From UHGV virus genome UHGV-1982450: DNA of 21,444 nucleotides. One strand, given 5' to 3'. Source of the stretch: a virus. The position numbers and the translations under genes were made by a program. This document shows positions 559 to 21,444 of the stretch, in pieces (within the stretch, counting starts at the first letter, position 1; each line of letters begins with the position of its first letter). A model generated the notes under the pieces. That model saw only the letters and a program-made list of their open reading frames with translations. It had not been told where the DNA came from and ran no database searches.

Positions 559-2118
559 TTACTCTCTATTCAAAACAGTGAAATCGAATGTGCTGCCAAC
601 CGGCAAGACCCCCTCGGCAAACCCAGGCGTCGTGTCGATAATGTGTTTCCGCTCATATGAATGCGACATGAGGTATTTGTTGCTCACGTCGATGAAGTCG
701 GTAATAAAGCACACGTTAGCCTGATTCTTTTTGGCTCGAAGACCGCGACCCACACGTTGACGCATCTCCACTTCGGCTTTGCCGCCACCACCCAGAATCA
801 CCGCGCCTACGCTTGGAACGTCGACACCAACATCCAGAATGGTTGAACCAATGAGAACATCTATCTTGCCTGCCGCCAGACTATTAAGTTTTGCTTGTCG
901 GGTAGTCTGGTTTGATTCTCCGTAGATGAAATCGACCTTCAGGCCACTCTCTTTCATCATTTCCATCAAGATCTGACCATGACGCTTCAGACGAACCAAT
1001 GTCATACAGTTCAGACCGTGACTCTTGTACATTAGCGCTTCACGCACAATAGCTTCGTTGCGGCCCAGATTATAGACGATGCCTAACTGATAGGCTTTCT
1101 GGTAAGCCGTGCTCATTCCAACCCGAAAATTCAGGTGTTTTGAAGCAAGTTCGGCTCTAATCCGCGCCTCATCTGGAGTGTACGCGATTTTATGATATAA
1201 AAAGTATGGTTTCGCTAAAATACCTCTGTCGATCAAATATTTCTCCGTTACTTTTATCTCGATGCGACCCGCAACGGCCATGAGACGCATATTTGCTTCA
1301 GTCGAGTCCTTCATGAACGGCGTAGCTGTCAGCGCCAGACGGTAGTCGGCATTGATGCACAACCGGGCGATGTCGTAGAAGTTAGAACCAGATGATTCGT
1401 GTGCCTCTTCCAGAATCAGCAGAGAAACGCTGGACAGGAAGCGTTTAACCAGTTCCCGGCGCTTCAGGTGGTACTGTTTTTTCTCCGGTGATGCGTCGCG
1501 CGGTGGCTCTTCGAGAAAACTGGCCAGGGTCTGCACCGTGGCAACGTTGATATGGCGCGAGACCTGGAACTCACCCGATCCAATCACCCCAACTCTCTGA
1601 CCTTTCAGCCACGGCTCGCCATTCTCCGCGCGGTAGTCGATGGATTTCTGGAAGTTCTCTGCCATCTGGAACATCAGAACCGATCGCGTGGTTAAAAACA
1701 GCGTCATACGACCAATGCGAGCAGCAGCCTTACACGCTACGTTCGATTTACCGCCACCCGTCGCAATCTGGGCAATCATCATCCCTTCGCGCACCAGTGT
1801 TTCCACTGTCTGATCCTGATACGCGTAGTCCGGGTTATACGGGAATGGGTTAACCACCGGATTCGGCTTACCCAGCGCGGGAGCTTTTTCCTTGCGAACA
1901 TGCACGCATTTGATGCCAGCTTTCAGAAGATTGGTCGCAACTGGCTTCGCAAACCCAGCCGGGAACGCGTTTTTACTCCAGTTGAACATCGTGCTGGTCC
2001 CTTTCCAGTCACCAGCCTCCACTTCATAGCTCAACATCTCCTGAACAAGCCGTTTCACGTTGTCATCAGCGCCAGAAATCAGCGCATTGACTGCATTTGA
2101 TACAATCCGAACAGTCAT
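559..2118 (-). CDS. Superfamily-2 DEAD/DEAH-box-like ATP-dependent helicase
   Basis: Walker A ATGGGKS, DEAH-like motif II LILEEAHESS, motif III LTATPF, and arginine-finger motif VI RQRVGRGLR in the 519-aa translation. Confidence 0.85.
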   Translation of the reverse strand: MTVRIVSNAVNALISGADDNVKRLVQEMLSYEVEAGDWKGTSTMFNWSKNAFPAGFAKPVATNLLKAGIKCVHVRKEKAPALGKPNPVVNPFPYNPDYAYQDQTVETLVREGMMIAQIATGGGKSNVACKAAARIGRMTLFLTTRSVLMFQMAENFQKSIDYRAENGEPWLKGQRVGVIGSGEFQVSRHINVATVQTLASFLEEPPRDASPEKKQYHLKRRELVKRFLSSVSLLILEEAHESSGSNFYDIARLCINADYRLALTATPFMKDSTEANMRLMAVAGRIEIKVTEKYLIDRGILAKPYFLYHKIAYTPDEARIRAELASKHLNFRVGMSTAYQKAYQLGIVYNLGRNEAIVREALMYKSHGLNCMTLVRLKRHGQILMEMMKESGLKVDFIYGESNQTTRQAKLNSLAAGKIDVLIGSTILDVGVDVPSVGAVILGGGGKAEVEMRQRVGRGLRAKKNQANVCFITDFIDVSNKYLMSHSYERKHIIDTTPGFAEGVLPVGSTFDFTVLNRE

Positions 2119-8443: not shown

Positions 8444-8965
8444 TTATTCTTCGAACAATTTTTCGATAGATTTTGTTGGATAGAACAAAGAACGATCGTT
8501 GTTACCAACCAGCTGGATAAAGCCCAAACTTTTATAAAACGCCCTGGCTTTATCGTTCAACGCCTCAACGAAAAGCCCATGAATGCCTACCGCAAGAGAT
8601 GCATTGTACACAACACGCATTGCGTGAGTTACAAGCATTGAGCCAAGCCCCTGACCTTGAAGAGATTTGTCCAAAGCCAGTCTGCCTAAAGTGATACTTG
8701 GGACATGCCGATAAGGCACTTTCTTTTGCTGACTCTTTGAAGGTAAGGTTTCTTTCTCAAAGCAGCTGCCTGACAAAGTGTAATAACCTAATACCTTTGG
8801 TATTTCTTCTTTAGTGCAAAGCACATAAGCGCGAAGAATTTTTCCTTCATGCTGTCTTTTTAAGTGGTTGGTCAAAAATGCGTTTAGCGACTCTTCGCCG
8901 CAATCAAAACCGTTTAGATCATAATCTTTCTCTCCAGAGAAAATCTCGATCGTCGTATTGCTCAC
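8444..8965 (-). CDS. GNAT-family acetyltransferase toxin of the TacT/AtaT/KacT type (aminoacyl-tRNA acetylating toxin family)
   Basis: Family-typical motifs FDCG, LGRLALDKSLQGQGLG and YKSLGF. Lies immediately downstream of, and co-oriented with, a DUF1778-type antitoxin gene. Confidence 0.9.
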   Translation of the reverse strand: MSNTTIEIFSGEKDYDLNGFDCGEESLNAFLTNHLKRQHEGKILRAYVLCTKEEIPKVLGYYTLSGSCFEKETLPSKSQQKKVPYRHVPSITLGRLALDKSLQGQGLGSMLVTHAMRVVYNASLAVGIHGLFVEALNDKARAFYKSLGFIQLVGNNDRSLFYPTKSIEKLFEE

Positions 8966-8972
8966 GAGTAAA

Positions 8973-9242
8973 TTACTCCATGCTTTTCAGACGATTGGCA
9001 GCTCGTTTCAGCTTGTCGTTCGGTGCCGGAGGATTGCTTATAGCATCCATAACCAGATTCCAGGACTCTTCACTTAGAACCAGTCTACGGTGTTGCTCTA
9101 TCACCTTCACGGCACGTTCGGATGCACTGCTAACCATGAACTGGGTAATGCTCTGGTTAGACATTGCGGCAGCTTCCTCGATGATGCTTTTATCGTCATC
9201 GGTTAATCTCAAATCGATGCGCTGCTTTTTCAGTGCGGACAT
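8973..9242 (-). CDS. DUF1778-family antitoxin (TacA-like RHH antitoxin)
   Basis: 89-aa protein whose N-terminal RHH region (RIDLRLTDDDKSIIEEAAAMSNQSITQFMV) and C-terminal toxin-binding helix match the DUF1778 pattern. Separated by 7 nt from the GNAT toxin gene. Confidence 0.85.
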   Translation of the reverse strand: MSALKKQRIDLRLTDDDKSIIEEAAAMSNQSITQFMVSSASERAVKVIEQHRRLVLSEESWNLVMDAISNPPAPNDKLKRAANRLKSME

Positions 9243-10638: not shown

Positions 10639-11406
10639 TTATGCCGCGCTAACACTATGTTCATTCCTAACCACCCCAACCTTCACAAAAGGGCTGCCGT
10701 AGCTTGGTGGCTTCTTGATTAATTTGCCTACATACAGTTTTCTAATATGCTCATCGGCTATTCTGCCAACAAATTCATAACGTTTTGTGTCGGGGCCAAG
10801 AGCTATATCCCTTGTAAAGTACTGCTGAGAACCGGCTTTGACCCAGCATTCAATCTGATAAACTTCCATTATCAGGCCCCCATATGTAGCGTAGGCATAT
10901 TTGAGATTCTCGTCTCTTGGAACCTTTGCCCATACGCCACGCGTAGCTTCATATAATGCCAGAGCGGACATTCCTGACTTGTAGGTGCTGTTTAGCAGGA
11001 AGGCAAGACCGGCGTGCTCAGGAGCAATTTCAGTTTCCTCTTGCAGCACTAAGTGATGGTAGGCGTCCAGTGATATTCTGCCCATCATGGAACCACTTCC
11101 TCGTACCTTATTCGTAAGCTCTCCGACCCCCATAAGGTCGATGCATGTCGCCTCAACAAGTTTGGCTGTGGTTTCATCCATACCATGACGAAGAATATCT
11201 ATGCCTAATTTTTTATTAGCCAAAAGTTCTTTGATCCGCATGGATTTGGGAGAGTCATCGGGATACTTGATGTGATCGAGACAACGAGTCGATTTGCCTT
11301 TTCCTATGTAAAACGGTCTTTTCATCTTGTCTTCTGTATCATAGAGACAGTAAACATAGTATTTAGCCTTATCCAATGATCTCGCGTATACCGATAAATC
11401 GTCCAT
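10639..11406 (-). CDS. GIY-YIG nuclease domain protein with an uncharacterised C-terminal domain of about 150 aa
   Basis: N-terminal GIY-YIG motif YYVYCLYD ... PFYIGKGKSTRCLDH. The C-terminal half has no motif I recognise. Confidence 0.7.
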   Translation of the reverse strand: MDDLSVYARSLDKAKYYVYCLYDTEDKMKRPFYIGKGKSTRCLDHIKYPDDSPKSMRIKELLANKKLGIDILRHGMDETTAKLVEATCIDLMGVGELTNKVRGSGSMMGRISLDAYHHLVLQEETEIAPEHAGLAFLLNSTYKSGMSALALYEATRGVWAKVPRDENLKYAYATYGGLIMEVYQIECWVKAGSQQYFTRDIALGPDTKRYEFVGRIADEHIRKLYVGKLIKKPPSYGSPFVKVGVVRNEHSVSAA

Positions 11407-12474: not shown

Positions 12475-13815
12475 ATGACCGAACTTTGCCACACAGGACG
12501 AGGGTTGTCTGAAGAGTTCGACGACGACTTCCAGAATAGACTCGCTGCCTACTTCTGTCGCGACCATGAGTTTCTGACTCGCGCAGGCGATCTGGTTGCC
12601 CCAAACCAGTTCTCTAATGCGGCTAACTCCATTCTGGTTAACATGGTGTCGGGCTACTACAGAATGTATAAGAGCGCACCATCATCATCAGCCATCCTCG
12701 ACATGCTCAAACGCGCCAAACGCGATAAGACGATCCGCGAAGAGCTGTTCCCTGACGTTGTTGAGGCGTTTAAGCGCATTCTCGCTGAGAAGCTGTCAGA
12801 TACGGCGTACATGGTCGACCAGGTCGCGACATTTGCTAAAAGCGTAGCGTTCGACGATGCGCTAATTAAAGCGGCTGAGATGAAAGAGAAGGGCGATTTC
12901 CAGGGCGCGATGGCAATCATGGCTAAGGTCCAGCAAATTGGCTCTAACGAAGCGACCGGCATTTACGATTACTTCGCAGAATCAGCGGAGCGTTACAAGG
13001 CCCGTGAGTACGAAGCGTCCGACGATTACGTGCCAAACAGCATCACTACCGGCCTCCCGCTGCTCGACAAACTGCTTTACCAGAAAGGCTGGGCAAAGCG
13101 TGAAATGGTGCTGTTTATGGGCTTCGCTAAGTCTGGTAAATCGACGGCGATGGGGGAGTTTTCCATCAACGCCACGCTTGCCGGTTACAACGTCCTGTAT
13201 CTGTCGCTGGAAGTTCACACCTCCATTCTGTCAGATCGCTTTGACGCCCGTCTGTCTGAGACCGAAATGTCCAGGCTGGTGGAACGTCGCGATGACGTCC
13301 ATCGCAAACTGGCGGAGCTGGGTGCGACGAAAGGCGTGGGAAGTTTGTGGATTGTTGAACGACCGTCCGGAAGCATGTCGCCCGCAGATCTGGATCGTAT
13401 GTTGGGCAGCATGAAAGCCAACGGCATGGTCCCCGATATGGTTGTGGTCGACTACGCTGACCTGATGCGTGCCAGCTACGACCTCCGCGACGACCGCGCT
13501 AACATTCGCAGCATCTACACTGACCTGCGTGCGCTGTACGACAAACACAACGTTGCCGGCATCACGGCATCGCAGACTAACAGAGAAGGTGGCGCTTCTG
13601 AGGTGGCTACAATGATGCACGCAGCGGACAACATCGAGAAGGTGCGTATCGCTGACCTCGTTATCACTATCAACAAAACGGAAGAAGAAGAAGCGAAAGG
13701 CGAAGCGCGTCTTTACTTCGCTGGTTCACGTAACCAGAAAGGCGGCGTAAGCATCCGCGTTAAGCAGAACCTCGAACAAATGCGATTCATCGAACGCATT
13801 ATGGACGTCCTCTAA
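12475..13815 (+). CDS. DnaB-like replicative helicase (RecA-fold C-terminal domain)
   Basis: Walker A GFAKSGKST followed by the DnaB-family pattern LYLSLEV ... VVVDYADLM ... ITASQTNREG. Shine-Dalgarno AAGGA before the ATG. Confidence 0.85.
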   Translation: MTELCHTGRGLSEEFDDDFQNRLAAYFCRDHEFLTRAGDLVAPNQFSNAANSILVNMVSGYYRMYKSAPSSSAILDMLKRAKRDKTIREELFPDVVEAFKRILAEKLSDTAYMVDQVATFAKSVAFDDALIKAAEMKEKGDFQGAMAIMAKVQQIGSNEATGIYDYFAESAERYKAREYEASDDYVPNSITTGLPLLDKLLYQKGWAKREMVLFMGFAKSGKSTAMGEFSINATLAGYNVLYLSLEVHTSILSDRFDARLSETEMSRLVERRDDVHRKLAELGATKGVGSLWIVERPSGSMSPADLDRMLGSMKANGMVPDMVVVDYADLMRASYDLRDDRANIRSIYTDLRALYDKHNVAGITASQTNREGGASEVATMMHAADNIEKVRIADLVITINKTEEEEAKGEARLYFAGSRNQKGGVSIRVKQNLEQMRFIERIMDVL

Positions 13816-13875: not shown

Positions 13876-15087
13876 TTGCCAAAACCACAAAAGAAAAAAC
13901 ACATGAGCCTTTATGGTATTCAAATACCGAGGCTTATCAAGATATTACCTGCAAAAAATAGGGGTAAGAACGTGAGCGACTTGAAAGAATTACTGACCGA
14001 GCTGGATTTTGAGCAATGGCTCGATATGGAAGGGATCATCTACCGTCGTGGTGGAGTCAGTACTCGCGGACGAGAGGTCAACATTAAAGAGTGTCCGGTA
14101 TGCGGCAGCTCAAACTGGAAGGTTTATTTCAACCTGACCAGTGGTGTCGGCAAATGCTTTGCAGGCGATCATCCCGAAGAGATTCAGTTCAACAAGCTGG
14201 TCTTCCTAAAGCATTACAGCGGCAAATCTCGTCGCGATTTTGAAGAGTACGTCCAGAACGCGCTGATCTCACAAGGATGGGCACCGAAGAAGGAAGAGAT
14301 CGTACTGGCCAGCAAGGTTGAACTGGAAGGACCGGTAGCTCTCCCGCGCCATTACGAACTCCCCATTGACGGTCGTCTTCCTGATTATCTGGTGGAGCGC
14401 CAGATTTCCCCGGAGCTGGCCAAATACTTTGATCTGCGTTACTGCGTCGAAGGCAAGCACGCATACGTCGATCCGTACACAGACCAGGTCAAAGGACAGG
14501 TATTCGATATGCGAATACTGATACCGGTTTACGATCTGGATGGCGTGATGAAGACCTTCCAGGGTCGTGACATTACCGGTGCAGCAGAACGCCGGTATCT
14601 GTTCCCCATGCAGCTGCCAGCATCGGGTAAATTTCTCTACAACGGCCACAATGCAGTCGGCAAACAGACTGTAGTTGTCTGTGAGGGGGCGTTCGATGTT
14701 ATGGGGGTTAAACGAGCTATTTTTGATGAAGAAACATTACGCGATTACGTGGAACCGATAGGAACGTTCGGGATGCATCTATCTGGTAACACCACTCAGG
14801 ATGCAGAAGATCAGTTGGGCGCGTTCCTGACGCTCAAGGCGCGTGGATTACGTAATGTGATTATGATGTGGGATAGTGAAAAGCAAGCTATACGCAACAC
14901 GATGGCCGCAGCCAGGCGACTGACTAGTATCGGTCTTAATGTCAAAGTAGCGTGTTTGGGCGAGGAAGGACTCGACCCCGGCGATGCGACACCGGGGCAG
15001 ATTATCAAAGCCTACTATTGCGCAAAACCTTATTCACGACAGCTTGAACTTTTAAGCAAGGTAAAAGGCATAGCTGCATTAGTTTGA
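13876..15087 (+). CDS. DNA primase (zinc-ribbon plus TOPRIM); the true start is probably downstream of 13876
   Basis: Zinc-ribbon CPVCGSS ... KCFAGDH resembling the T7 gp4-type primase zinc-binding domain, and a TOPRIM-like acidic motif VVVCEGAFDVMG. Alternative starts at 13903 (ATG) or 13972 (GTG with a GGGG Shine-Dalgarno). Confidence 0.8.
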   Translation: MPKPQKKKHMSLYGIQIPRLIKILPAKNRGKNVSDLKELLTELDFEQWLDMEGIIYRRGGVSTRGREVNIKECPVCGSSNWKVYFNLTSGVGKCFAGDHPEEIQFNKLVFLKHYSGKSRRDFEEYVQNALISQGWAPKKEEIVLASKVELEGPVALPRHYELPIDGRLPDYLVERQISPELAKYFDLRYCVEGKHAYVDPYTDQVKGQVFDMRILIPVYDLDGVMKTFQGRDITGAAERRYLFPMQLPASGKFLYNGHNAVGKQTVVVCEGAFDVMGVKRAIFDEETLRDYVEPIGTFGMHLSGNTTQDAEDQLGAFLTLKARGLRNVIMMWDSEKQAIRNTMAAARRLTSIGLNVKVACLGEEGLDPGDATPGQIIKAYYCAKPYSRQLELLSKVKGIAALV

Positions 15088-15229
15088 ACCAGTATTATCA
15101 ACGGCTCGGTAGTGTCTAAATTATCCGTGGCGATTCAGTTCTTTTCGTGGGTATGTCTACTTATAGATATTTGTTTGTGTTGTGTTCTTGGTCGAATACA
15201 ATTAATCTGCATGGTTAATGGACTAAAAA

Positions 15230-16216
15230 TTGTCGTTCTTTGGGGGAGAAGTGAACATTGTAGATGCTCTTGTTCTCAAGAAGTTAATGAGCGTTGGTGA
15301 TGAAACTGTTCTGTCAATCTTAAAGTTTTCAGCGTACAGCGGAGTGTCAACACTCGAAGAACTGGTAGTTAACTCCTCCAATCTGAAAATCTCAAATGGT
15401 AAATCTCGAGCAACTCTCGAAAGTTTCTTCGACGCTGCGAACTTCCAGGCTCTCAGGGACGAAGTAAAAACAGAGATTGATTCGTTCAAAAATAAAGGAG
15501 TTGAGATTGTTATCTTCGGTTCGAAAAACTATCCAATTTCGTTATATGATCTCCCGAAACCTCCACCCTTTCTTTACTGTAAAGGCAATCTAAATCTCTT
15601 AGAGAATAGGCTTTCATTAGCTGTTGTAGGAACTCGTGAAAACACCCCCAAGGGTGAAACCCTAACGATTAAAACTATTCAAAAGTTTGCGACTTATGGC
15701 TTCACGATAGTCAGTGGACTTGCACTGGGTATCGATACAATTGCTCATCGCGCGGCATTAGATGCCAAAACACCAACGATTTCTGTTCTTGTCGATGTGG
15801 AGTCTATTTCTCCCGCAAGTAATCGGGAACTCGCTAAGGAAATATTGGACGAGGGCGGACTTCTAGTTGCAGAGAATGCACCAGGAACCAAAGCAATACC
15901 TGCGTTCTTTGCTAAGCGAGACAGGATACAAGCAGGTTTATCTACTGCCGTCTTTGCTATTGAAACTTCGATAGATGGTGGGACGATGCACGCAGTCAAA
16001 TCTGCTATCTCTATGATGCGTCCTGTCTTCGTTCCTGACGTACATAAAGCTAAGTATCCAGATCTTACTATCAAGGCAATTTCAGGAACTCAACAGCTAG
16101 TTAACGAAGGGAGGGCGATACCATACACGAGCGAATCTTATGAAGATATTCGTCTTCAATTAGAAGATATCGCGAGTTCATTTGGGTCGTTGAAAGCAAA
16201 AGGTGGCCTGCTGTGA
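15230..16216 (+). CDS. DprA/Smf-like (SLOG-type Rossmann) protein; candidate antitoxin or partner of the downstream PRTase fusion protein
   Basis: DprA signature LAVVGTR ... GFTIVSGLALGIDTIAHRAAL ... FAKRDRIQAGLSTAVFAIETSIDGGTMHA. Its stop overlaps the start of the next gene (GTGA). Start may be TTG at 15230 or GTG at 15251 (GGGGGAG Shine-Dalgarno). Confidence 0.85.
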   Translation: MSFFGGEVNIVDALVLKKLMSVGDETVLSILKFSAYSGVSTLEELVVNSSNLKISNGKSRATLESFFDAANFQALRDEVKTEIDSFKNKGVEIVIFGSKNYPISLYDLPKPPPFLYCKGNLNLLENRLSLAVVGTRENTPKGETLTIKTIQKFATYGFTIVSGLALGIDTIAHRAALDAKTPTISVLVDVESISPASNRELAKEILDEGGLLVAENAPGTKAIPAFFAKRDRIQAGLSTAVFAIETSIDGGTMHAVKSAISMMRPVFVPDVHKAKYPDLTIKAISGTQQLVNEGRAIPYTSESYEDIRLQLEDIASSFGSLKAKGGLL

Positions 16217-19200
16217 TAAAGGTCATCGTCCTCGATCTTGATGACACGCTTATTGATACATCAAGCCTCGAACCACTTCGGTTAGCTGGCCGATGGAGAG
16301 ACATACCCAGGTACTTTAATGGTTGTGTCATCAATCAGGACGTTGTCGGCCTTGTTACAACGGCTCGGTCGGTTGGAATCAAGGTTGCTATCTTCTCGAA
16401 TGCGCCTTCGAACTACGTTCAGGGGCTACTCAAACACTTCAGTATCACTGTTGATTATGTAGTAGCCTACCATGATGTAACGCAGCATAAGCCGAGCCCT
16501 GAGGGCGTTACTCGTATTCTCGAGTACTTCGGTGTTAGCGCCGACGAGTCAATTTATTTAGGAGATAGTAACCTAGATCGAGACGCTGCTTCCAATGCAG
16601 GAGTTGAGTTTTTCTCAGTAGATTGGGGTTCTGCCTCGGAGATCGATTCGTCACATAAGGGAATAAGCGGTCTCTCCGAGCTTATTGGAAAAAACTCGAC
16701 GCGGAGCTCCGCAAGAACTGGACGTTCTGAGTTAATACAATCTGGGAATAAACTTCATCTGGGATTCTATTTAGATGGTATCAAACAGGAAGTTTGGTCT
16801 TTCAAGGATAACAAGAATACTTCTGTTCGCCGCTGGGTTAACAAGACTGTTGAGCTAGCTTCTTCATTCCCAGCCATAGATATAGTTGTTCGAGCGTTAG
16901 GTCACGCTGAGCTTAGGGCTGAAGATGGCGATAAAGCATTAGATACCTTGGGCAAATCGCTGGCTGTTGCTTTAGGGGCTTCTTACCAACCTAAGATATT
17001 AGAGAAAGATCACGTATTAGATAAATCGACTAATTGCACTGCAGCACAAAGACTCCACCAGGTCAGAGGTGCCTATAAAGCCGATTTTGATTCAATAGAA
17101 GCTAATTCAAATCCGACATTTCTGATCATTGACGACGTATTAACTTCGGGGGCTACAACTGATGAGATAACACGCTGTCTATCTCAAGCTTTTCCGAATT
17201 CAAGTATTTACATTTTTACGTTGGTTAAAACTCTCTATAGATTGGAGCTATGCACTGACAGCCAAGAACAACAACACAATAACCAACTGTTTTCAGATTT
17301 GTACAACCCAATCATCGACTCGCTGGCGGACGAAAGTGAACTATCTAGACATGTCAGGTCGAAGTCTAGTAGCAGGCTTGTAAGCAAGAAGTTTTCTGCT
17401 AACTACGCGAGAACCAACCATAACTTCATTTTCCACAATCTTCTCCAGTATTCTATCTCGTCTGAAGCGGCGTCTGGACAGCTATTTGCAGCAATTCAAG
17501 TTCTTAAGAATATGCTTCAGAGAGGGAAGCCAACAATAGCCTCGCGGAAGCTGAGGAAGGCATTTGGCATTGAACTGGATCAGAACGTTCTTAATACACC
17601 AGCTCAGGCTCTTGTGTCAGATAAGCCGGTTTTTTGGAATAGATTGATTCGAGGCCACAAACAGTCAGGAAACTACCCAGCGAAAAGGTTTTTTGATGAG
17701 CTGATACCGAAGTATTTCGGTAAGTACATTTTTGTAAAACAACTAATGCTCCCTGAAGTCCAGATTTACGATATGACTCAGGTCTACGTTGAACAATTCC
17801 AGAACCGACAGGTAGATTTTTACATTCCTCAAGTTGGTTTAATTATTGAGATAGACGGTCAGCAGCACCAAAATTCTCAGCATTTAGATGAAATGAGGGA
17901 TGCGTTTACCGAAAGCCTGGGACTGAAGACTGTTCGATTCACTGTTCAAGAACTGGCATCTGAGAACCAGTCATTTATCAGTAAGATAAATTCGATTATT
18001 TCTCACATTCAGATCGTTGATGGTCTAGAGCGAAATGGTGTCCTAACGCCTCCTAATGGTATTTCTTTATTGAATTACCAAGAGGCTTACGAAAATGGAG
18101 TCGATGTTACTGACTCGCGATTGAGGCTGACCTCGGCGTTGCGTTTCCAGATACTGTTATTAGAGCTTCTTGAACGCGGTCAGATCAGACTAGGGGAGTT
18201 GAAAAAACTATTCATAGTCAATCGTGATGGAACTGATTTTGCTGAAGCGGCACTGGACGACCTGAACGATTTGTTATCGAATATCTTTCGTCTCATCGGC
18301 ATTGAAGAAAAGCGAATTGAGGTTGCGCTGATCGAATCAGATGAGCTTCCGAGCGAACGGTCTGGTGAAAATATATTCATCGACTTCAGCTTACTGGAGC
18401 GTTATGACGATTCCTTTCAAGTTAACCAAGACGTCATATATTCACGTACGGATTACTTCGATTTCTATCGAAACTTCGAAGATTCTGATGCTGTTTCAAT
18501 AGAAACCAGTCAATTGATTGACTATGACTTTTTTGAGCTTTCATGTAGTAACCCCATTACCTACAAGCTAGATCTTAGCCCAGGCAGCGAGCAGAGAGAG
18601 TCGCTGAGATACTTCCTCAGCAACCTGTTTCTACCATACCTAGAGGATGTAGATTTCAGGGAAGGGCAGGTTGGTATCATAGGATCTGCACTTTCGAAAA
18701 ACGGCACAATAGGATTGCTGCCTACAGGTTCGGGTAAGTCGATTTGTTACCAGCTGTCTGCGGTCCTGCAACCAGCCGTTAGCTTTGTCGTGTGCCCGAT
18801 AAAAAGTTTGATGTATGACCAGAAAGCAGATTTGGATAGCATCGGCTTCACTCGAAGCAATTTTATTACAAGTGATTTGAAGGCAGGAGAGAAGGCCAAA
18901 GTTCAGAGAGATTTCGGACGTGGTAAGTACTTCTTCGTTTTTATATCGCCTGAGCGATTCCAAACCCATGCGTTTAGAAAAGAGATGTTGGCTATCGGAC
19001 TAGATCTCTCATTTGCCTACGCGGTGATCGATGAAGCTCACTGTTTGTCTGAGTGGGGACATGATTTCAGGACTTCTTATCTGAACCTGGCAAATACAAT
19101 CGAACGGTTTGCTCCCAGTGCGAGTTATATAGGTCTAACGGCAACAGCATCAGTTAACGTCCTAAAGGATATTCAAACAGAGTTTGATATCCCAGATGAT

Positions 19201-20889
19201 TTTGTCCGTACCCCCATGGACTTCACTCGCGAGGAACTATCATTCCACGTCATTGACGATAAAGGCCGTAAAGGTGATGCAGTCGTCGAGCTTGTTTCTG
19301 AAATGGAGGGTAAATGGAATTCAGATGGGGAAGACGGCAATAAGGCGGGGATCATATTCACTTCTACCGTCAACGGAGCTAAGGGGTGTTATAGCTTAGC
19401 GGGCCGAATATCAACACTCTTGAAGATGGATGTTAGATATTTTTCGGGGTCGGCTCCGAAAATGGGTGGATTGCAGGGAGAGGCTTTCGATAGATATAAG
19501 CGCCAAGTTCAAGACGATTTTAAAGAAAATAAATACCGCCTACTTACTGCCACTAAGGCATTCGGAATGGGCGTGAATAAGGGAAATATTGCCTATACGG
19601 TTCACTTCGGAATACCTGGGTCGATGGAGGCCTTGTATCAGGAAGCTGGCAGGGCAGGGCGAGATAAAAAACTATTCAAGGAAGTACCCGCAGATTGCTA
19701 TGTGCTTCTCACAAAAGAGCCCAATTCAGCTATTCTCGACAAGATTTGGGACGCTAGCACGAACGTCAAAGATCTGAAGGAGTACGTGAAGTCATTGAGT
19801 CGCGATAGCGACCTGAACACAAATCTATTCCTGATGACAAACGGCTTGGGCACAATCAATGATGAGTTCAAGTTGATGGCAAATGTATACGAATTTTTTA
19901 AGTACAATCAGGAACACAACACGGTGACCATTACTGCCAGGCAGTTTGGTACGGAAAAGTTTAAATTGGAAAAGGCTATCTACCGCCTTTCTCAATTAGG
20001 TATTGTCTCTGACTGGGTAATCGAAGACTTTTTTAATGGAACGCTCTCTGTCGAGTTCCAGTGCCTATCGGAAGAAGGCCTGGAAAAGAAAATTGAGCAT
20101 ACCGTCAGAAAGTATGATCCTGAGTTTAAGCTCGCTGATGTGTTCAGTAGTGATAACCAGTACTACAAAATTCTCTGCGACAAGCTGAGAAAAGGGTCTA
20201 TCGATAAATCGCAATTTATCTTTCTTGTTCTTTTACTTTGGTCCTATGACCATTTTGTCTACAACCGCCGCCAGTCACAGAAGAACGTTTATGAACACTG
20301 TAGTTTATTTGCTGAAGGCAGGATGGATGGTAAAGAATTTAAGGAGAAGTTAGAGGGTTATTTCAGACACGACAAGTCGAGCCAACTTTTGCTCAATATG
20401 GCTGAGAATTCTGTGTCGGTGAAGTTATGGCCATCAGTTTTTTTTGAAACTGATGAAGAAGAGGGCTCGGAACATTTAGTAAGCAGCGAGAAGATGACGA
20501 TCCTACGAGGTCAGATTTCTCGATTCCTAGAGTCATACAAAGATAATGCATTCTTGAACTACTTGAGTGGTGTGCTGCGACTAGCTTCCGATGAGTTTGA
20601 TGATGCAGATGGAGAGCGAAGAATGGCATCGTCATTTGATCGGTTGATCAGTGATAATAGGGATGAAGCACTAGAGCTGGTCCGAAAAACTATGCAGTTA
20701 AAACCAATATTTTCTGAAAATGCGCGAAGTCGCTTTGCTCGTTTGGTCCATGAGAAATTTGAAGATTTGGATTTTCTTGGGGAAGTAAATGAAGAGCTAG
20801 GAGATCCGTTCTCCTATCACACTTTGTTAGCTCCACTGGCAATTAGACTTGAAAAACTTACCAGCCTATACAAGGGGATTAATTGGTGA
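16213..20889 (+). CDS. 1558-aa multidomain protein: N-terminal HAD-like phosphatase, ComF-like PRTase, Vsr/DUF559-like endonuclease-fold module, RecQ-family SF2 helicase core, and an uncharacterised C-terminal region of about 390 aa
   Basis: HAD motifs DLDDTL, FSNA, HKP, GDSNLDRD (aa 1-140). PRTase PRPP loop FLIIDDVLTSGATT (nt 17119-17160). Vsr-like pattern DFYIPQVGLIIEIDGQQH ... TVRF (about nt 17710-17997). RecQ motifs LLPTGSGKS, VVCPIKSLMYDQ, VIDEAHCLSEWGHDFR, LTATA, ATKAFGMGVNK, YQEAGRAGRD (about nt 18610-19692). Confidence 0.9.
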   Translation: MIKVIVLDLDDTLIDTSSLEPLRLAGRWRDIPRYFNGCVINQDVVGLVTTARSVGIKVAIFSNAPSNYVQGLLKHFSITVDYVVAYHDVTQHKPSPEGVTRILEYFGVSADESIYLGDSNLDRDAASNAGVEFFSVDWGSASEIDSSHKGISGLSELIGKNSTRSSARTGRSELIQSGNKLHLGFYLDGIKQEVWSFKDNKNTSVRRWVNKTVELASSFPAIDIVVRALGHAELRAEDGDKALDTLGKSLAVALGASYQPKILEKDHVLDKSTNCTAAQRLHQVRGAYKADFDSIEANSNPTFLIIDDVLTSGATTDEITRCLSQAFPNSSIYIFTLVKTLYRLELCTDSQEQQHNNQLFSDLYNPIIDSLADESELSRHVRSKSSSRLVSKKFSANYARTNHNFIFHNLLQYSISSEAASGQLFAAIQVLKNMLQRGKPTIASRKLRKAFGIELDQNVLNTPAQALVSDKPVFWNRLIRGHKQSGNYPAKRFFDELIPKYFGKYIFVKQLMLPEVQIYDMTQVYVEQFQNRQVDFYIPQVGLIIEIDGQQHQNSQHLDEMRDAFTESLGLKTVRFTVQELASENQSFISKINSIISHIQIVDGLERNGVLTPPNGISLLNYQEAYENGVDVTDSRLRLTSALRFQILLLELLERGQIRLGELKKLFIVNRDGTDFAEAALDDLNDLLSNIFRLIGIEEKRIEVALIESDELPSERSGENIFIDFSLLERYDDSFQVNQDVIYSRTDYFDFYRNFEDSDAVSIETSQLIDYDFFELSCSNPITYKLDLSPGSEQRESLRYFLSNLFLPYLEDVDFREGQVGIIGSALSKNGTIGLLPTGSGKSICYQLSAVLQPAVSFVVCPIKSLMYDQKADLDSIGFTRSNFITSDLKAGEKAKVQRDFGRGKYFFVFISPERFQTHAFRKEMLAIGLDLSFAYAVIDEAHCLSEWGHDFRTSYLNLANTIERFAPSASYIGLTATASVNVLKDIQTEFDIPDDFVRTPMDFTREELSFHVIDDKGRKGDAVVELVSEMEGKWNSDGEDGNKAGIIFTSTVNGAKGCYSLAGRISTLLKMDVRYFSGSAPKMGGLQGEAFDRYKRQVQDDFKENKYRLLTATKAFGMGVNKGNIAYTVHFGIPGSMEALYQEAGRAGRDKKLFKEVPADCYVLLTKEPNSAILDKIWDASTNVKDLKEYVKSLSRDSDLNTNLFLMTNGLGTINDEFKLMANVYEFFKYNQEHNTVTITARQFGTEKFKLEKAIYRLSQLGIVSDWVIEDFFNGTLSVEFQCLSEEGLEKKIEHTVRKYDPEFKLADVFSSDNQYYKILCDKLRKGSIDKSQFIFLVLLLWSYDHFVYNRRQSQKNVYEHCSLFAEGRMDGKEFKEKLEGYFRHDKSSQLLLNMAENSVSVKLWPSVFFETDEEEGSEHLVSSEKMTILRGQISRFLESYKDNAFLNYLSGVLRLASDEFDDADGERRMASSFDRLISDNRDEALELVRKTMQLKPIFSENARSRFARLVHEKFEDLDFLGEVNEELGDPFSYHTLLAPLAIRLEKLTSLYKGINW

Positions 20890-21374
20890 ATGACATACAG
20901 AAACTACACCGGGTAATCGATTCACTCGAAGAGCAATCGACGCAAGTGGCACAGTTTAATGGCCTGTTGAGCGCCGTCAGCGATGCAAGAACTGAGATAG
21001 AGGCTGCGAAATCAACGCTCGTAAATCTAGCTTATGAACACGCTGAATTGTTTACGAAGAACTCGAATAAATTTGAAGAGTTTGACGGCCGCCTTATGTC
21101 ACTAAATGATCTTCTAGGCCAGATCAAAGATGAACAGTTGAAACTAAGGCGTGAGGTTGCAGCCTTGAAGTTTGTAACACCAGAGCAGTTTGAACAAGGC
21201 TGCACAGCAATTGATAGCCGCATTGCTAAACAATTAGCGGAATTGAAAAGCAAGTTAGAGGCGGCGGCGGAGTCTCAGCAAAGATCGATAAGCGGGCTAC
21301 GAACCATAGTTGTTTTAGGTATCTTGGTGTTGGCTGGAGGTGTCGGATTCTTGGCTATGAATATTTTTCTTTAA
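20883..21374 (+). CDS. Coiled-coil protein with a C-terminal transmembrane anchor; possible third component of the DprA-PRTase-helicase locus
   Basis: Start (TTG 20883 or GTG 20886) overlaps the stop of the 1558-aa gene. Heptad-rich helical sequence and a C-terminal TM helix IVVLGILVLAGGVGFLAMNIF. Confidence 0.5.
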   Translation: MVNDIQKLHRVIDSLEEQSTQVAQFNGLLSAVSDARTEIEAAKSTLVNLAYEHAELFTKNSNKFEEFDGRLMSLNDLLGQIKDEQLKLRREVAALKFVTPEQFEQGCTAIDSRIAKQLAELKSKLEAAAESQQRSISGLRTIVVLGILVLAGGVGFLAMNIFL

Positions 21375-21444
21375 TTTTCAGATTGTCATTCAGTTTTTAG
21401 TTGTAATCAATAAGTTGGAATACAGAGGCTTTTTCCTCTGCTGT

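What the first reader, a model, noticed from the sequence alone, without database searches (positions are those of the whole stretch)
15230..20889. DprA-like gene coupled to a giant HAD-PRTase-nuclease-RecQ protein: candidate ShosTA-related defence system with an expanded effector
A DprA/Smf-like protein (328 aa) is translationally coupled (GTGA overlap at 16213-16216) to a 1558-aa protein with a clear type I PRTase PRPP loop (FLIIDDVLTSGATT). From memory, and not verified here, a PRTase toxin paired with a DprA-like antitoxin is the defining architecture of ShosTA-type toxin-antitoxin/anti-phage systems. Here the PRTase is embedded in a much larger protein that also carries HAD phosphatase, Vsr/DUF559-like nuclease and complete RecQ helicase modules. 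I do not recall that combination as described; it suggests a nucleic-acid-sensing module fused to a nucleotide-targeting effector. The locus sits in an AT-richer block of a mobile element, typical of defence cargo.
Basis: partly seen in the sequence, partly recalled or inferred. Interest (0 to 1): 0.9.

Follow-up and report, generated by a model that had tools for sequence, protein, structure and literature searches.

The report
ShosTA toxin fused to nuclease-helicase
A rare, horizontally mobile three-gene cassette on an E. coli phage-plasmid joins a known toxin-antitoxin anti-phage pair (ShosTA) to a nuclease-helicase and a small membrane protein; this fusion appears undescribed and could help show what this class of toxin actually attacks.

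Summary
Window 15251-16216 encodes a DprA-like protein. Its stop overlaps (GTGA) the start of a 1558-aa protein with HAD, PRTase, DUF559/Vsr-type nuclease and RecQ-type helicase modules, and all catalytic motifs are conserved in 96 homologues.

- HAD+PRTase is not an expansion. It is the whole known ShosT toxin. ShosT is the top structural match, hhalign probability is 95.8%, and the toxicity-essential DD pair aligns.
- A RecQ-like helicase plus PRTase with a DprA-like antitoxin is already known as PsyrTA/RqlHI, in a different domain order.
- The operon has a third, translationally coupled gene (20886-21374) for a tail-anchored coiled-coil membrane protein.

Residues 403-1558 plus the small protein also occur as a separate two-gene module in defence islands. 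Across loci, DprA is present in 14 of 14 PRTase-bearing forms and 0 of 20 PRTase-less forms.

The 6.28-kb cassette fills a variable site of an SSU5-like phage-plasmid. It recurs at 93-97% DNA identity in E. coli chromosomal defence islands, Klebsiella plasmids, Advenella and Vibrio.

It is best read as a composite ShosTA-type abortive-infection system. Function is inferred, not tested. Verdict: a new variant of a known kind.

The parts
15146..21426 (.). Mobile 6.28-kb cassette: promoter region, three coupled genes and a short 3' tail.
   Evidence: The same end points (15140/15146 and 21426) are seen in blastn matches to five other contexts. These are the E. coli chromosome L013 at 97.1%, Advenella mandrilli L016 at 97.1%, Klebsiella plasmid L014 at 96.2%, and Vibrio thalassae L018 and Maribrevibacterium L017 at 93-95%. 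GC is 43.2% against 49.8% for the backbone. Only 8 of 206 related plasmids carry it.
15251..16216 (+). ShosA-like DprA-family protein, the presumed antitoxin. 321 aa from GTG 15251; an alternative TTG start at 15230 gives 328 aa.
   Evidence: Pfam PF02481 1.9e-53. PADLOC ShosA PDLC03961 1.5e-67, against PsyrA 1.7e-28. Below the NCBIfam dprA equivalog cutoff (159.7 vs 191). Best solved-structure relatives are ShosA 8zva/9vzo at 6e-34. 37% identical to canonical E. coli ShosA, E 2e-42.
16213..20889 (+). 1558-aa fusion protein: a ShosT-like toxin module joined to a DpdF/RecQ-like nuclease-helicase.
   Evidence: About 100 clusters of ~1560-aa homologues at 41-95% identity. PHROG phrog_33220, function unknown.
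16213..16692 (+). HAD-type hydrolase domain (residues 1-160), the counterpart of the ShosT pyrophosphatase domain.
   Evidence: Pfam HAD_2 2.8e-17. D8, D10, T12, K93, G117 and D122 are invariant and D118 nearly invariant. AlphaFold pLDDT is about 90. Aligned with ShosT residues 3-150 by hhalign.
16720..17307 (+). Type I PRTase domain (residues ~170-365) with PRPP loop FLIIDDVLTSGATT (303-316), the presumed toxic activity.
   Evidence: PADLOC ShosT 1.4e-7 and NCBIfam GntX/ComF 1.4e-7. Foldseek top hits are ShosT 8zvd/8zvc/8zvb, E 9e-12 to 3e-11, across both domains. hhalign against canonical ShosT gives 95.8% probability, and D307/D308 align with ShosT D331/D332. The D331A/D332A mutant loses toxicity (PMC11961720).
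17419..18627 (+). Start of the 'core' shared with the stand-alone ~1170-aa form (residue 403 onward). It includes the DUF559/Vsr-type endonuclease (residues ~515-600, nt 17755-18012).
   Evidence: Short-form homologues begin at 'KKYSANY..TNHNF', which matches query residue ~392-405. Pfam DUF559 1.1e-9 and PvuRts1I-like_N 2.9e-4. The motif VDF..P...IIEIDG.QH is conserved at >=90%.
18628..19710 (+). RecQ-type superfamily-2 helicase core (residues ~806-1166).
   Evidence: TIGR00614 recQ_fam 223.6 bits (cutoff 219.8) and recQ equivalog 240 bits (cutoff 640). Solved RecQ/BLM/RECQ1 structures match at ~1e-41 to 1e-38. Walker A GLLPTGSGKS, DEAH-CLSEWGHDFR and QEAGRAGR are conserved.
19705..20886 (+). 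C-terminal region (residues 1165-1558): a winged-helix domain (about residues 1234-1284) followed by a family-specific helical domain with motifs WSYDHFVYNRRQS and SRFLESY.
20886..21374 (+). 162-aa tail-anchored coiled-coil membrane protein, the third gene. Its GTG start overlaps the stop of the fusion gene. The TM helix is at residues 140-158 (nt 21303-21359).
   Evidence: 34% identical to the Marinobacterium partner, E 9e-29. A small downstream ORF is found in 25 of 30 species-representative loci, each with a strongly hydrophobic C-terminal segment, and accompanies both long and short forms. PHROG phrog_28492, function unknown.

Best explanation
The locus is a three-gene anti-phage / toxin-antitoxin cassette formed by fusing two modules.

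- Module 1 is a ShosTA pair. A DprA-like ShosA antitoxin gene is followed by a ShosT toxin (HAD-type pyrophosphatase plus PRPP-dependent PRTase).
- Module 2 is a separately occurring pair. A DpdF/RecQ-like protein (Vsr-type endonuclease, RecQ helicase core, winged helix, novel helical domain) is followed by a tail-anchored coiled-coil membrane protein.
- In this family the 3' end of shosT has been joined in frame to the helicase gene.

Proposed mechanism (inferred, not shown):
- In uninfected cells the PRTase is held in check by the DprA-like protein through ssDNA/RecA, as published for ShosA.
- The attached helicase probably also restrains it, as published for RqlH, where helicase-dead mutants are more toxic.
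- During infection, phage ssDNA or replication intermediates engage the DprA-like protein and the helicase.
- This releases PRPP-consuming PRTase activity, with pyrophosphate removed by the HAD domain, and Vsr-type nicking.
- Nucleotide metabolism and DNA are damaged and phage replication stops.
- The membrane partner positions or regulates the nuclease-helicase half.

What is shown: domain identities, motif conservation, operon conservation, strict DprA/PRTase co-occurrence, cassette mobility and defence-island context. What is inferred: toxicity, antitoxin role, trigger, and the roles of the helicase, nuclease and membrane protein.
For: ShosA identity:
- PADLOC ShosA 1.5e-67.
- Best solved relatives are ShosA.
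- 37% identical to canonical ShosA.

ShosT identity of residues 1-370:
- Foldseek top three PDB hits are ShosT, E ~1e-11, over ~400 columns.
- hhalign 95.8%, E 7e-9, 315 columns, with the catalytic DD aligned.
- The published ShosT architecture is HAD-like PPase plus PRTase (PMC11961720).

Gene order and coupling:
- The order is the same as in canonical E. coli shosA->shosT.
- A stand-alone relative also has DprA overlapping the toxin gene by 4 nt.

Module 2 exists alone:
- ~1170-aa proteins start at query residue ~403 and are followed by the small TM protein.

Co-variation:
- DprA is directly upstream in 14/14 PRTase-bearing loci and absent from 0/20 PRTase-less loci, Fisher p = 7e-10.

Purifying selection:
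- All catalytic motifs are conserved in 96 homologues.

Defence context:
- Zorya, BrxR and nSTAND3.
- Type I R-M and MZA in the E. coli chromosome.
- McrBC, AIPR, Tiamat/Mokosh-like.
- Among 123 neighbouring ORFs: MADS, SoFic, AbiE, type I R-M, type IV REase, Menshen, PD-T4-2.

Variable cargo:
- 8 of 206 related plasmids and 7 of 5426 E. coli genomes carry it.
- Other SSU5-like plasmids carry phd/doc plus a fimbrial operon at the same site.

Precedent for helicase control of a PRTase toxin with a DprA-like antitoxin: RqlHI (PMC4670107).
Against: - There are no experimental data for this cassette or any family member.
- Sequence similarity to the crystallised ShosT is remote. Pairwise BLASTP covers only the HAD part at E 2e-5, and the PADLOC ShosT hit is 29.6 bits over less than half of the model.
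- ShosT's physiological substrate is itself unknown (PMC11961720, PMC12961424), so the effector chemistry is extrapolated.
- The nuclease-helicase half works without PRTase or DprA in many genomes. The fusion may therefore be two systems sharing an operon rather than one integrated machine.
- Defence-island association is qualitative. No background rate was computed.
- The scan found no consensus promoter upstream of the DprA-like gene.
Confidence: 0.68

Rival explanations
1. The cassette is mainly a plasmid-addiction (post-segregational killing) module that stabilises the phage-plasmid. A stable PRTase toxin and an unstable DprA-like antitoxin would kill plasmid-free segregants, and phage defence would be absent or incidental.
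For: - The window is a low-copy SSU5-like phage-plasmid.
- In sister plasmids the same insertion site holds a phd/doc addiction module.
- A TacA/GNAT toxin-antitoxin pair lies 6 kb upstream.
- ShosA is reported to be intrinsically unstable (PMC11961720).
Against: - The same cassette sits in chromosomes inside defence islands and in distant bacteria next to Zorya and other defence systems.
- Addiction would not explain conservation of an active nuclease, helicase and membrane partner.
- Canonical ShosTA protects against T7 (PMC11961720).
- The two roles are not mutually exclusive.
Confidence: 0.15
2. The genes are replication, recombination or repair functions of the phage-plasmid. A DprA/RecQ pair would support recombination-dependent replication next to the DnaB-like helicase and primase.
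For: - The cassette lies immediately downstream of the DnaB-like helicase (12475-13815) and primase (13876-15087) genes.
- RefSeq names the genes 'DNA-processing protein DprA' and 'RecQ family ATP-dependent DNA helicase'.
- SSB genes lie next to the cassette in two unrelated loci.
Against: - It is absent from phage SSU5 and every record in the phage collection, and from 198 of 206 related plasmids, so it is not core.
- Both proteins score below the NCBIfam equivalog cutoffs for dprA and recQ.
- It moves as a discrete 6.28-kb unit between unrelated backbones.
- IS-disrupted copies persist on otherwise intact plasmids.
- The HAD-PRTase toxin module has no place in a replication role.
Confidence: 0.05
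3. It is a membrane-tethered ssDNA-handling machine modelled on the competence proteins ComFA (helicase), ComFC (PRTase-like) and DprA. It would intercept incoming foreign ssDNA, for example conjugative DNA, at the membrane. The PRTase fold would serve as a DNA-binding or adaptor domain rather than a metabolic toxin.
For: - The PRTase region matches the GntX/ComF model, and the H. pylori ComF structure 7p0h is among the fold hits at E 4e-5.
- NCBI names a fragment of this gene 'ComF family protein'.
- The conserved partner is membrane-anchored.
- Russell and Mulvey noted the ComF/DprA parallel for RqlHI (PMC4670107).
Against: - ShosT is a far better structural match than ComF (1e-11 vs 4e-5) and includes the HAD domain, which ComFC lacks.
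- PRPP-loop residues needed for catalysis and toxicity are invariant.
- The membrane partner accompanies the PRTase-less form too, so it is linked to the helicase rather than to a ComF-like function.
Confidence: 0.07

Closest known systems
ShosTA (ShosA DprA-like antitoxin plus ShosT HAD-PPase/PRTase toxin; E. coli; PMC11961720, PMC12961424, PMC9122126)
   Same: - The DprA-like first gene is of ShosA type.
- The toxin N-terminus has the same two-domain HAD+PRTase fold, with the PRPP-loop DD aligned.
- Gene order is the same, antitoxin then toxin, with the two genes directly adjacent (2-nt gap in the canonical pair).
- Both are carried in hotspots of temperate mobile elements.
   Different: - The toxin continues for another ~1150 residues (Vsr-type nuclease, RecQ-type helicase, winged helix, novel helical domain).
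- There is a third gene for a membrane protein.
- Sequence identity to the crystallised ShosT is only ~20%.
PsyrTA / RqlHI (RecQ-like helicase-PRTase toxin plus DprA-like antitoxin; PMC4670107; bioRxiv 10.1101/2022.05.11.491447)
   Same: - One polypeptide combines a RecQ-like helicase with a PRTase and is partnered with a DprA-like protein.
- The PADLOC PsyrT model matches the helicase core at 8e-61.
- In RqlH the helicase and RqlI jointly restrain PRTase genotoxicity, which is the best available model for this fusion.
   Different: - Domain order is reversed: PRTase is C-terminal in PsyrT and N-terminal here.
- PsyrT has no HAD or DUF559 domain and is ~690 aa.
- Only positions 20-337 of the 689-position PsyrT model match.
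- The partner here scores as ShosA (226 bits), not PsyrA (98 bits), and lacks the C-terminal HTH extension.
- In rqlHI the toxin gene is upstream, whereas here the DprA gene is upstream.
- PsyrTA has no membrane partner.
DpdF helicase of the Dpd 7-deazaguanine DNA-modification/restriction system
   Same: PADLOC DpdF model PDLC02868 aligns over residues 471-1471 (3.2e-112), covering the nuclease, the helicase and most of the C-terminal region. The stand-alone short form scores the same.
   Different: - The NCBIfam DpdF equivalog scores 139 bits against a cutoff of 550.
- No dpdA/B/C or other dpd genes are present in the window or in any related locus examined.
ComFA / ComFC / DprA natural-transformation proteins
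   Same: The combination of helicase, PRTase-fold protein and DprA-family protein is shared, along with weak GntX/ComF sequence and fold matches.
   Different: - The HAD domain, nuclease and RecQ-type (not ComFA-type) helicase are not part of the competence set.
- The cassette is not in a competence operon.
- The DprA-like protein is below the dprA equivalog cutoff.
Housekeeping RecQ
   Same: The helicase core carries all the motifs, including the aromatic-rich loop, and reaches the RecQ-family subfamily threshold.
   Different: - It scores 240 bits against the 640 cutoff of the recQ equivalog.
- No HRDC domain or Zn-binding module was detected.
- It is embedded in a 1558-aa multi-enzyme protein on mobile cargo.

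Membership tests
ShosTA | Antitoxin is a DprA-like protein of the ShosA type (SAM plus Rossmann fold, ~315-330 aa). | tested here: met
   PADLOC ShosA 1.5e-67. Best PDB relatives are ShosA 8zva/9vzo. 37% identical to canonical ShosA, E 2e-42. Length is 321 aa.
ShosTA | [quoted passage not shown] | tested here: met
   Foldseek top hits are ShosT 8zvd/8zvc/8zvb, E ~1e-11. hhalign gives 95.8% over 315 columns with DD307/308 aligned to ShosT D331/D332. Motifs are invariant in the family.
ShosTA | Two-gene system with a stand-alone toxin of ~424 aa. | tested here: not met
   The toxin module is fused to ~1150 further residues, and a third coupled gene is conserved.
ShosTA | PRTase-dependent toxicity neutralised by the DprA-like partner; protection against phage. 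| not testable with these tools
   Only indirect support is available: DprA is present in 14/14 PRTase-bearing loci and 0/20 PRTase-less loci.
PsyrTA / RqlHI | Toxin is an N-terminal RecQ-like helicase with a C-terminal PRTase (~690 aa). | tested here: not met
   Both domains are present but in reverse order, with HAD and DUF559 added. The PADLOC PsyrT match covers only model positions 20-337 of 689.
PsyrTA / RqlHI | Antitoxin PsyrA/RqlI is DprA-like with a C-terminal HTH (~400 aa) and is encoded downstream of the toxin. | tested here: not met
   PsyrA scores 1.7e-28, weaker than ShosA at 1.5e-67. The partner is 321 aa and encoded upstream.
Dpd system (DpdF) | Reaches the DpdF equivalog score. 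| tested here: not met
   NF041063 scores 139.4 bits against a cutoff of 550. One broader PADLOC DpdF model (PDLC02868) does match at 3.2e-112.
Dpd system (DpdF) | Encoded within a dpd cluster alongside other dpd genes (dpdA/B/C modification genes and further dpd restriction genes). | tested here: not met
   No such neighbours were seen in the window, in L001, or in any of the related loci whose gene tables were read.
RecQ family helicases | RecQ-type SF2 core with Walker A, DEAH, aromatic-rich loop and motif VI. | tested here: met
   TIGR00614 scores 223.6 bits against a cutoff of 219.8. The motifs are conserved. PDB RecQ matches at 4e-41.
RecQ (housekeeping orthologue) | Reaches the recQ equivalog score and has full RecQ architecture (Zn-binding/RQC and HRDC). 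| tested here: not met
   TIGR01389 scores 240 bits against a cutoff of 640. The C-terminal region shows only a winged helix plus an unmatched helical domain.
DprA (competence orthologue) | Reaches the dprA equivalog score. | tested here: not met
   TIGR00732 scores 159.7 bits against a cutoff of 191.15, and PRK10736 scores 130 against 495.

The most novel reading that the evidence does not exclude
PRTase toxins of the ShosT/PsyrT class may act on DNA itself, or on nucleobases at the DNA, rather than on the free nucleotide pool.

In this reading the fusion is a single DNA-modifying and DNA-cutting machine. The RecQ-type helicase exposes single strands. The PRTase phosphoribosylates a base using PRPP, with the HAD domain removing pyrophosphate. 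The Vsr-type endonuclease nicks at the lesion. The DprA-like protein with RecA repairs self DNA.

The evidence behind this is the recurrence of PRTase-helicase fusions in at least two domain orders. PsyrT has helicase then PRTase. This family has PRTase, nuclease, then helicase, including a divergent HAD-less 1664-aa branch. That recurrence would then reflect substrate channelling rather than mere regulation.
Probability: 0.15. Interest if true: 0.9.

Novelty: new variant of a known kind. Interest (0 to 1): 0.62.

Why it matters
Both recent structural papers on ShosTA leave the toxin's physiological substrate, and the way phage infection triggers it, as open questions (PMC11961720, PMC12961424).

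- A natural in-frame fusion of the whole ShosT module to a DNA nuclease-helicase, always accompanied by the ShosA-like gene, argues that the PRTase works in close association with DNA.
- The fusion links ShosTA and PsyrTA/RqlHI into one functional class: a PRTase toxin, a DNA helicase and a DprA-like antitoxin.
- It offers a tractable E. coli test case, a 6.3-kb cassette with obvious point mutants.
- It brings out an undescribed two-gene candidate defence module, a DUF559-RecQ-like protein plus a tail-anchored membrane protein, found mostly in Bacteroidota.
- The ShosT module appears to be a portable effector. It is also fused to Hsp70-like and HEAT-repeat proteins.
- The result adds to the picture of phage-plasmids as carriers of defence cargo.

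Tried and rejected
- Pfam Pribosyltran did not hit the window protein. The PRTase call therefore rests on PADLOC, NCBIfam, structure and hhalign.
- phmmer of the N-terminus against PDB sequences did not find ShosT even at E 10. Only the profile (2e-6), the fold search and hhalign did.
- Fold searches of the C-terminal 394 residues gave no informative match beyond a generic winged helix. Its function remains unknown.
- Searches for flanking direct or inverted repeats that could explain cassette mobility found only short matches, probably due to chance. The ends are not integron attC-like.
- The promoter and terminator scans were at background level and found no consensus promoter upstream of gene 1.
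- The word-indexed homologue search with the N-terminal profile returned mostly fragments of the same family. Only one stand-alone relative could be placed in genomic context.
- The Dpd-system reading was rejected: no dpd neighbours were found and the equivalog score is far below cutoff.
- A link to the YprA-helicase defence families was checked in PMC12458937. That paper contains none of the terms RecQ, PRTase, DprA or DpdF.
- Literature searches for a described fusion of ShosT with a helicase found none. Subscription-only papers are not covered.

Full report
**Setting**

The window is part of an SSU5-like phage-plasmid of E. coli.
- Its large terminase is 99.5% identical to that of Salmonella phage SSU5.
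- The nearly identical plasmid pXJW9B263-1 carries terminase, DnaB-like helicase, primase, ligase and partition genes around the locus.
- The finding lies directly after the primase gene (13876-15087).

**Observation**

Gene 1 (GTG 15251 per RefSeq, or TTG 15230, to 16216) is a DprA-family protein (Pfam 1.9e-53).

Gene 2 (16213-20889, 1558 aa) has these matches:
- HAD_2 at 2.8e-17.
- DUF559 at 1.1e-9.
- DEAD and Helicase_C.
- RecQ-family TIGR00614 just above its cutoff, 223.6 against 219.8 bits.
- Pfam's Pribosyltran model did not hit. The region around the PRPP loop (FLIIDDVLTSGATT, residues 303-316) does match PADLOC ShosT and NCBIfam GntX/ComF, both at 1.4e-7.

In a MAFFT alignment with 96 full-length homologues (41-95% identity), the HAD motifs are conserved at >=90%. 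So are the PRPP loop, the DUF559 motif VDF..P...IIEIDG.QH, and the RecQ Walker A, DEAH-CLSEWGHDFR and QEAGRAGR motifs. The reading frame and all four activities are therefore under selection.

**The N-terminal 400 residues are a complete ShosT**

Published crystal structures show that ShosT is an N-terminal HAD-like pyrophosphatase (1-164) plus a C-terminal PRTase (165-424). D331A/D332A abolishes its toxicity (PMC11961720, read).
- An AlphaFold model of residues 1-405 (pLDDT 84) has ShosT entries 8zvd, 8zvc and 8zvb as its three best Foldseek matches. E is 9e-12 to 3e-11 over ~400 columns across both domains. Generic HAD phosphatases and H. pylori ComF follow.
- I recovered canonical E. coli shosA-shosT from a P2-like prophage hotspot, with the ShosA fragment 100% identical to the crystallised protein.
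- A family profile aligns to that ShosT with hhalign probability 95.8% and E 7e-9 over 315 columns. D307/D308 fall on ShosT's DD.
- Plain BLASTP sees only the HAD part, so the relationship is remote at about 20% identity.

The DprA-like protein is of ShosA type.
- PADLOC ShosA scores 1.5e-67 and PsyrA 1.7e-28.
- The best solved relatives are ShosA 8zva/9vzo.
- It is 37% identical to canonical ShosA.
- It falls below NCBI's dprA equivalog cutoff.
- Gene order, antitoxin then toxin, matches canonical ShosTA.
- A stand-alone 392-aa HAD-PRTase relative is also overlapped by 4 nt by a ShosA-like gene.

**The remaining 1150 residues are a module that also exists alone**

About fifteen homologue clusters are ~1170 aa and start at the position matching query residue ~403, the KK(F/Y)SANY..TNHNF motif.
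- PADLOC's DpdF model PDLC02868 covers residues 471-1471 at 3.2e-112 and scores the short form equally.
- The NCBIfam DpdF equivalog is far below cutoff (139 against 550).
- No dpd genes are nearby in any locus.
- The helicase core is about equally similar to RecQ (PDB 4e-41), to PsyrT (8e-61) and to other DpdF models.

**A third gene belongs to the system**

GTG 20886 overlaps the stop codon of gene 2 in a second GTGA and opens a 162-aa ORF. The product has a conserved N-terminal motif, a coiled coil and a C-terminal transmembrane helix.
- It is 34% identical (E 9e-29) to the gene in the same position in Marinobacterium.
- It is recognisably related to the partner of the short form.
- In a census of 31 loci from 100,044 species representatives, a small downstream ORF was found in 25 of 30 cases. 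Each has a strongly hydrophobic C-terminal segment, and it follows both long and short forms.

**Operon conservation and co-variation**

The three genes, with overlapping stop and start codons, recur in several settings:
- A Marinobacterium conjugative element.
- A metagenomic defence island with nSTAND3, BrxR and Zorya.
- Loci next to SSB, reverse transcriptase and Xre/ParS-type genes.
- Further loci. The locus is a variant without the HAD domain that still has the DprA gene.

Counts across all loci:
- Every PRTase-bearing form has a DprA-like gene directly upstream (14 of 14).
- No PRTase-less form has one within the sequence available, up to 8 kb on each side (0 of 20). Fisher's exact test gives p = 7e-10.
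- The DprA-like and fusion proteins diverge in parallel, 43% and 45% identity to the L009 copies.

This is the strongest computational evidence that the DprA-like protein serves the PRTase module and that the membrane protein serves the helicase module.

**Mobility and context**

The cassette has fixed ends at window 15140/15146 and 21426. Its GC content is 43.2% against 49.8% for the backbone.

Copies elsewhere:

| Host or replicon | DNA identity |
|---|---|
| Three E. coli chromosomes | 97% |
| Advenella mandrilli | 97% |
| Klebsiella plasmids | 96% |
| Vibrio thalassae, Maribrevibacterium | 93-95% |

- In the E. coli chromosomes it sits between a type I R-M system and a PD-(D/E)XK nuclease, a restriction endonuclease and the MZA system.
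- It is present in 8 of 206 related plasmids and 7 of 5426 complete E. coli genomes. It is absent from the phage collection, SSU5 included.
- Sister plasmids carry phd/doc and a fimbrial operon at the same site.
- Short-form loci neighbour McrBC, AIPR and Tiamat/Mokosh-like genes.
- Among 123 neighbouring ORFs, strong PADLOC hits include MADS, SoFic, AbiE, type I R-M, a type IV enzyme, Menshen and PD-T4-2.
- Several copies are damaged. There is IS1 in the helicase domain, IS5, an IS-associated truncation at about residue 568 and a ~600-bp insertion in Vibrio.

**Comparison with known systems**

ShosTA shares the antitoxin type, the toxin fold and the gene order, but not the two-gene, stand-alone-toxin layout.

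PsyrTA/RqlHI already combines a RecQ-like helicase, a PRTase and a DprA-like antitoxin (PMC4670107). The differences here are a reversed domain order, added HAD and Vsr-type nuclease domains, a ShosA-type rather than PsyrA-type partner encoded upstream, and a membrane protein.

In RqlH, PRTase mutations remove toxicity. Helicase-dead mutants are more toxic and RqlI does not rescue them. That result is the basis for proposing that the helicase here restrains the PRTase.

Searches of the available literature found no description of this fusion. PHROGs lists all three proteins as of unknown function.

**Wider pattern**

An exhaustive profile search found the ~1560-aa architecture in only about six 50%-identity clusters. 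The same HAD-PRTase module also occurs:
- alone, as many proteins of 400-500 aa;
- fused to an Hsp70-like ATPase;
- fused to HEAT repeats;
- fused to unknown domains.

A collinear, HAD-less 1664-aa branch has PRTase, a restriction-endonuclease fold and a RecQ-like helicase.

**Verdict**

This is a real, conserved, horizontally mobile three-gene cassette. It is best explained as a composite ShosTA-type toxin-antitoxin and anti-phage system whose toxin is fused to a DpdF/RecQ-like nuclease-helicase that brings its own membrane partner.
- Classification as a defence/TA cassette: confidence about 0.7.
- The specific mechanism is inferred.
- Novelty: a new variant of a known kind.

Noticed in passing
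window 8444-9242 (minus strand): A TacA-like antitoxin (8973-9242, Pfam TacA1 3.5e-26) sits next to a GNAT acetyltransferase (8444-8965). This is a TacAT-type toxin-antitoxin pair on the phage-plasmid backbone, conserved in sister plasmids.
   Followed up: partly
L002 9139-16600 (pYY76-1-1), equivalent to the window site after 15087: The site downstream of the primase gene is a cargo hotspot. Here a sister plasmid carries phd/doc and a complete chaperone-usher fimbrial operon instead of the cassette.
   Followed up: partly
L015 5981-6678; L014 6752 onward; L018 2473-3078; hit H27: Several copies of the fusion gene are disrupted. There is IS1 in the helicase domain, a truncation next to IS elements at about residue 568, a ~600-bp insertion between the HAD and PRTase domains in Vibrio thalassae, and IS5 in another E. 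coli plasmid. In the three copies whose left end was examined the DprA-like gene stays intact, as expected if the large protein is costly.
   Followed up: partly
proteins P0135, P0130, P0129, P0134, P0143 (no loci): The ShosT-like HAD-PRTase module is also fused to an Hsp70-like ATPase (1177 aa), HEAT repeats (667 aa) and unknown C-terminal domains. This suggests a portable effector attached to different partner domains.
   Followed up: partly
L004, L006, L007, L024-L046: A two-gene module consists of a ~1170-aa DUF559 plus RecQ-like protein and a ~160-180-aa tail-anchored coiled-coil protein. It occurs mostly in Bacteroidota and Gastranaerophilales, often beside known defence genes. Apart from the DpdF-model hit it matches no PADLOC system, and it may be an undescribed defence system in its own right.
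   Followed up: partly
L003 12480-12980; L010 11202-11612: An SSB gene lies within about 2 kb of the cassette in two unrelated loci, directly after the third gene in one case. Phage SSB mutations let phages escape canonical ShosTA (PMC12961424), so this may be more than coincidence.
   Followed up: no
L016 and L013, right of the cassette: Advenella mandrilli and the E. coli chromosome share identical sequence beyond the right end of the cassette but differ on the left. Advenella and Vibrio thalassae share the left flank. The cassette therefore travels within mosaic islands.
   Followed up: no
window 10639-11406 (minus) and 559-2118 (minus): The backbone encodes a LEM-3-like GIY-YIG domain protein and a separate DEAD/ResIII helicase of 519 aa. 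The functions of both are uncharacterised.
   Followed up: no
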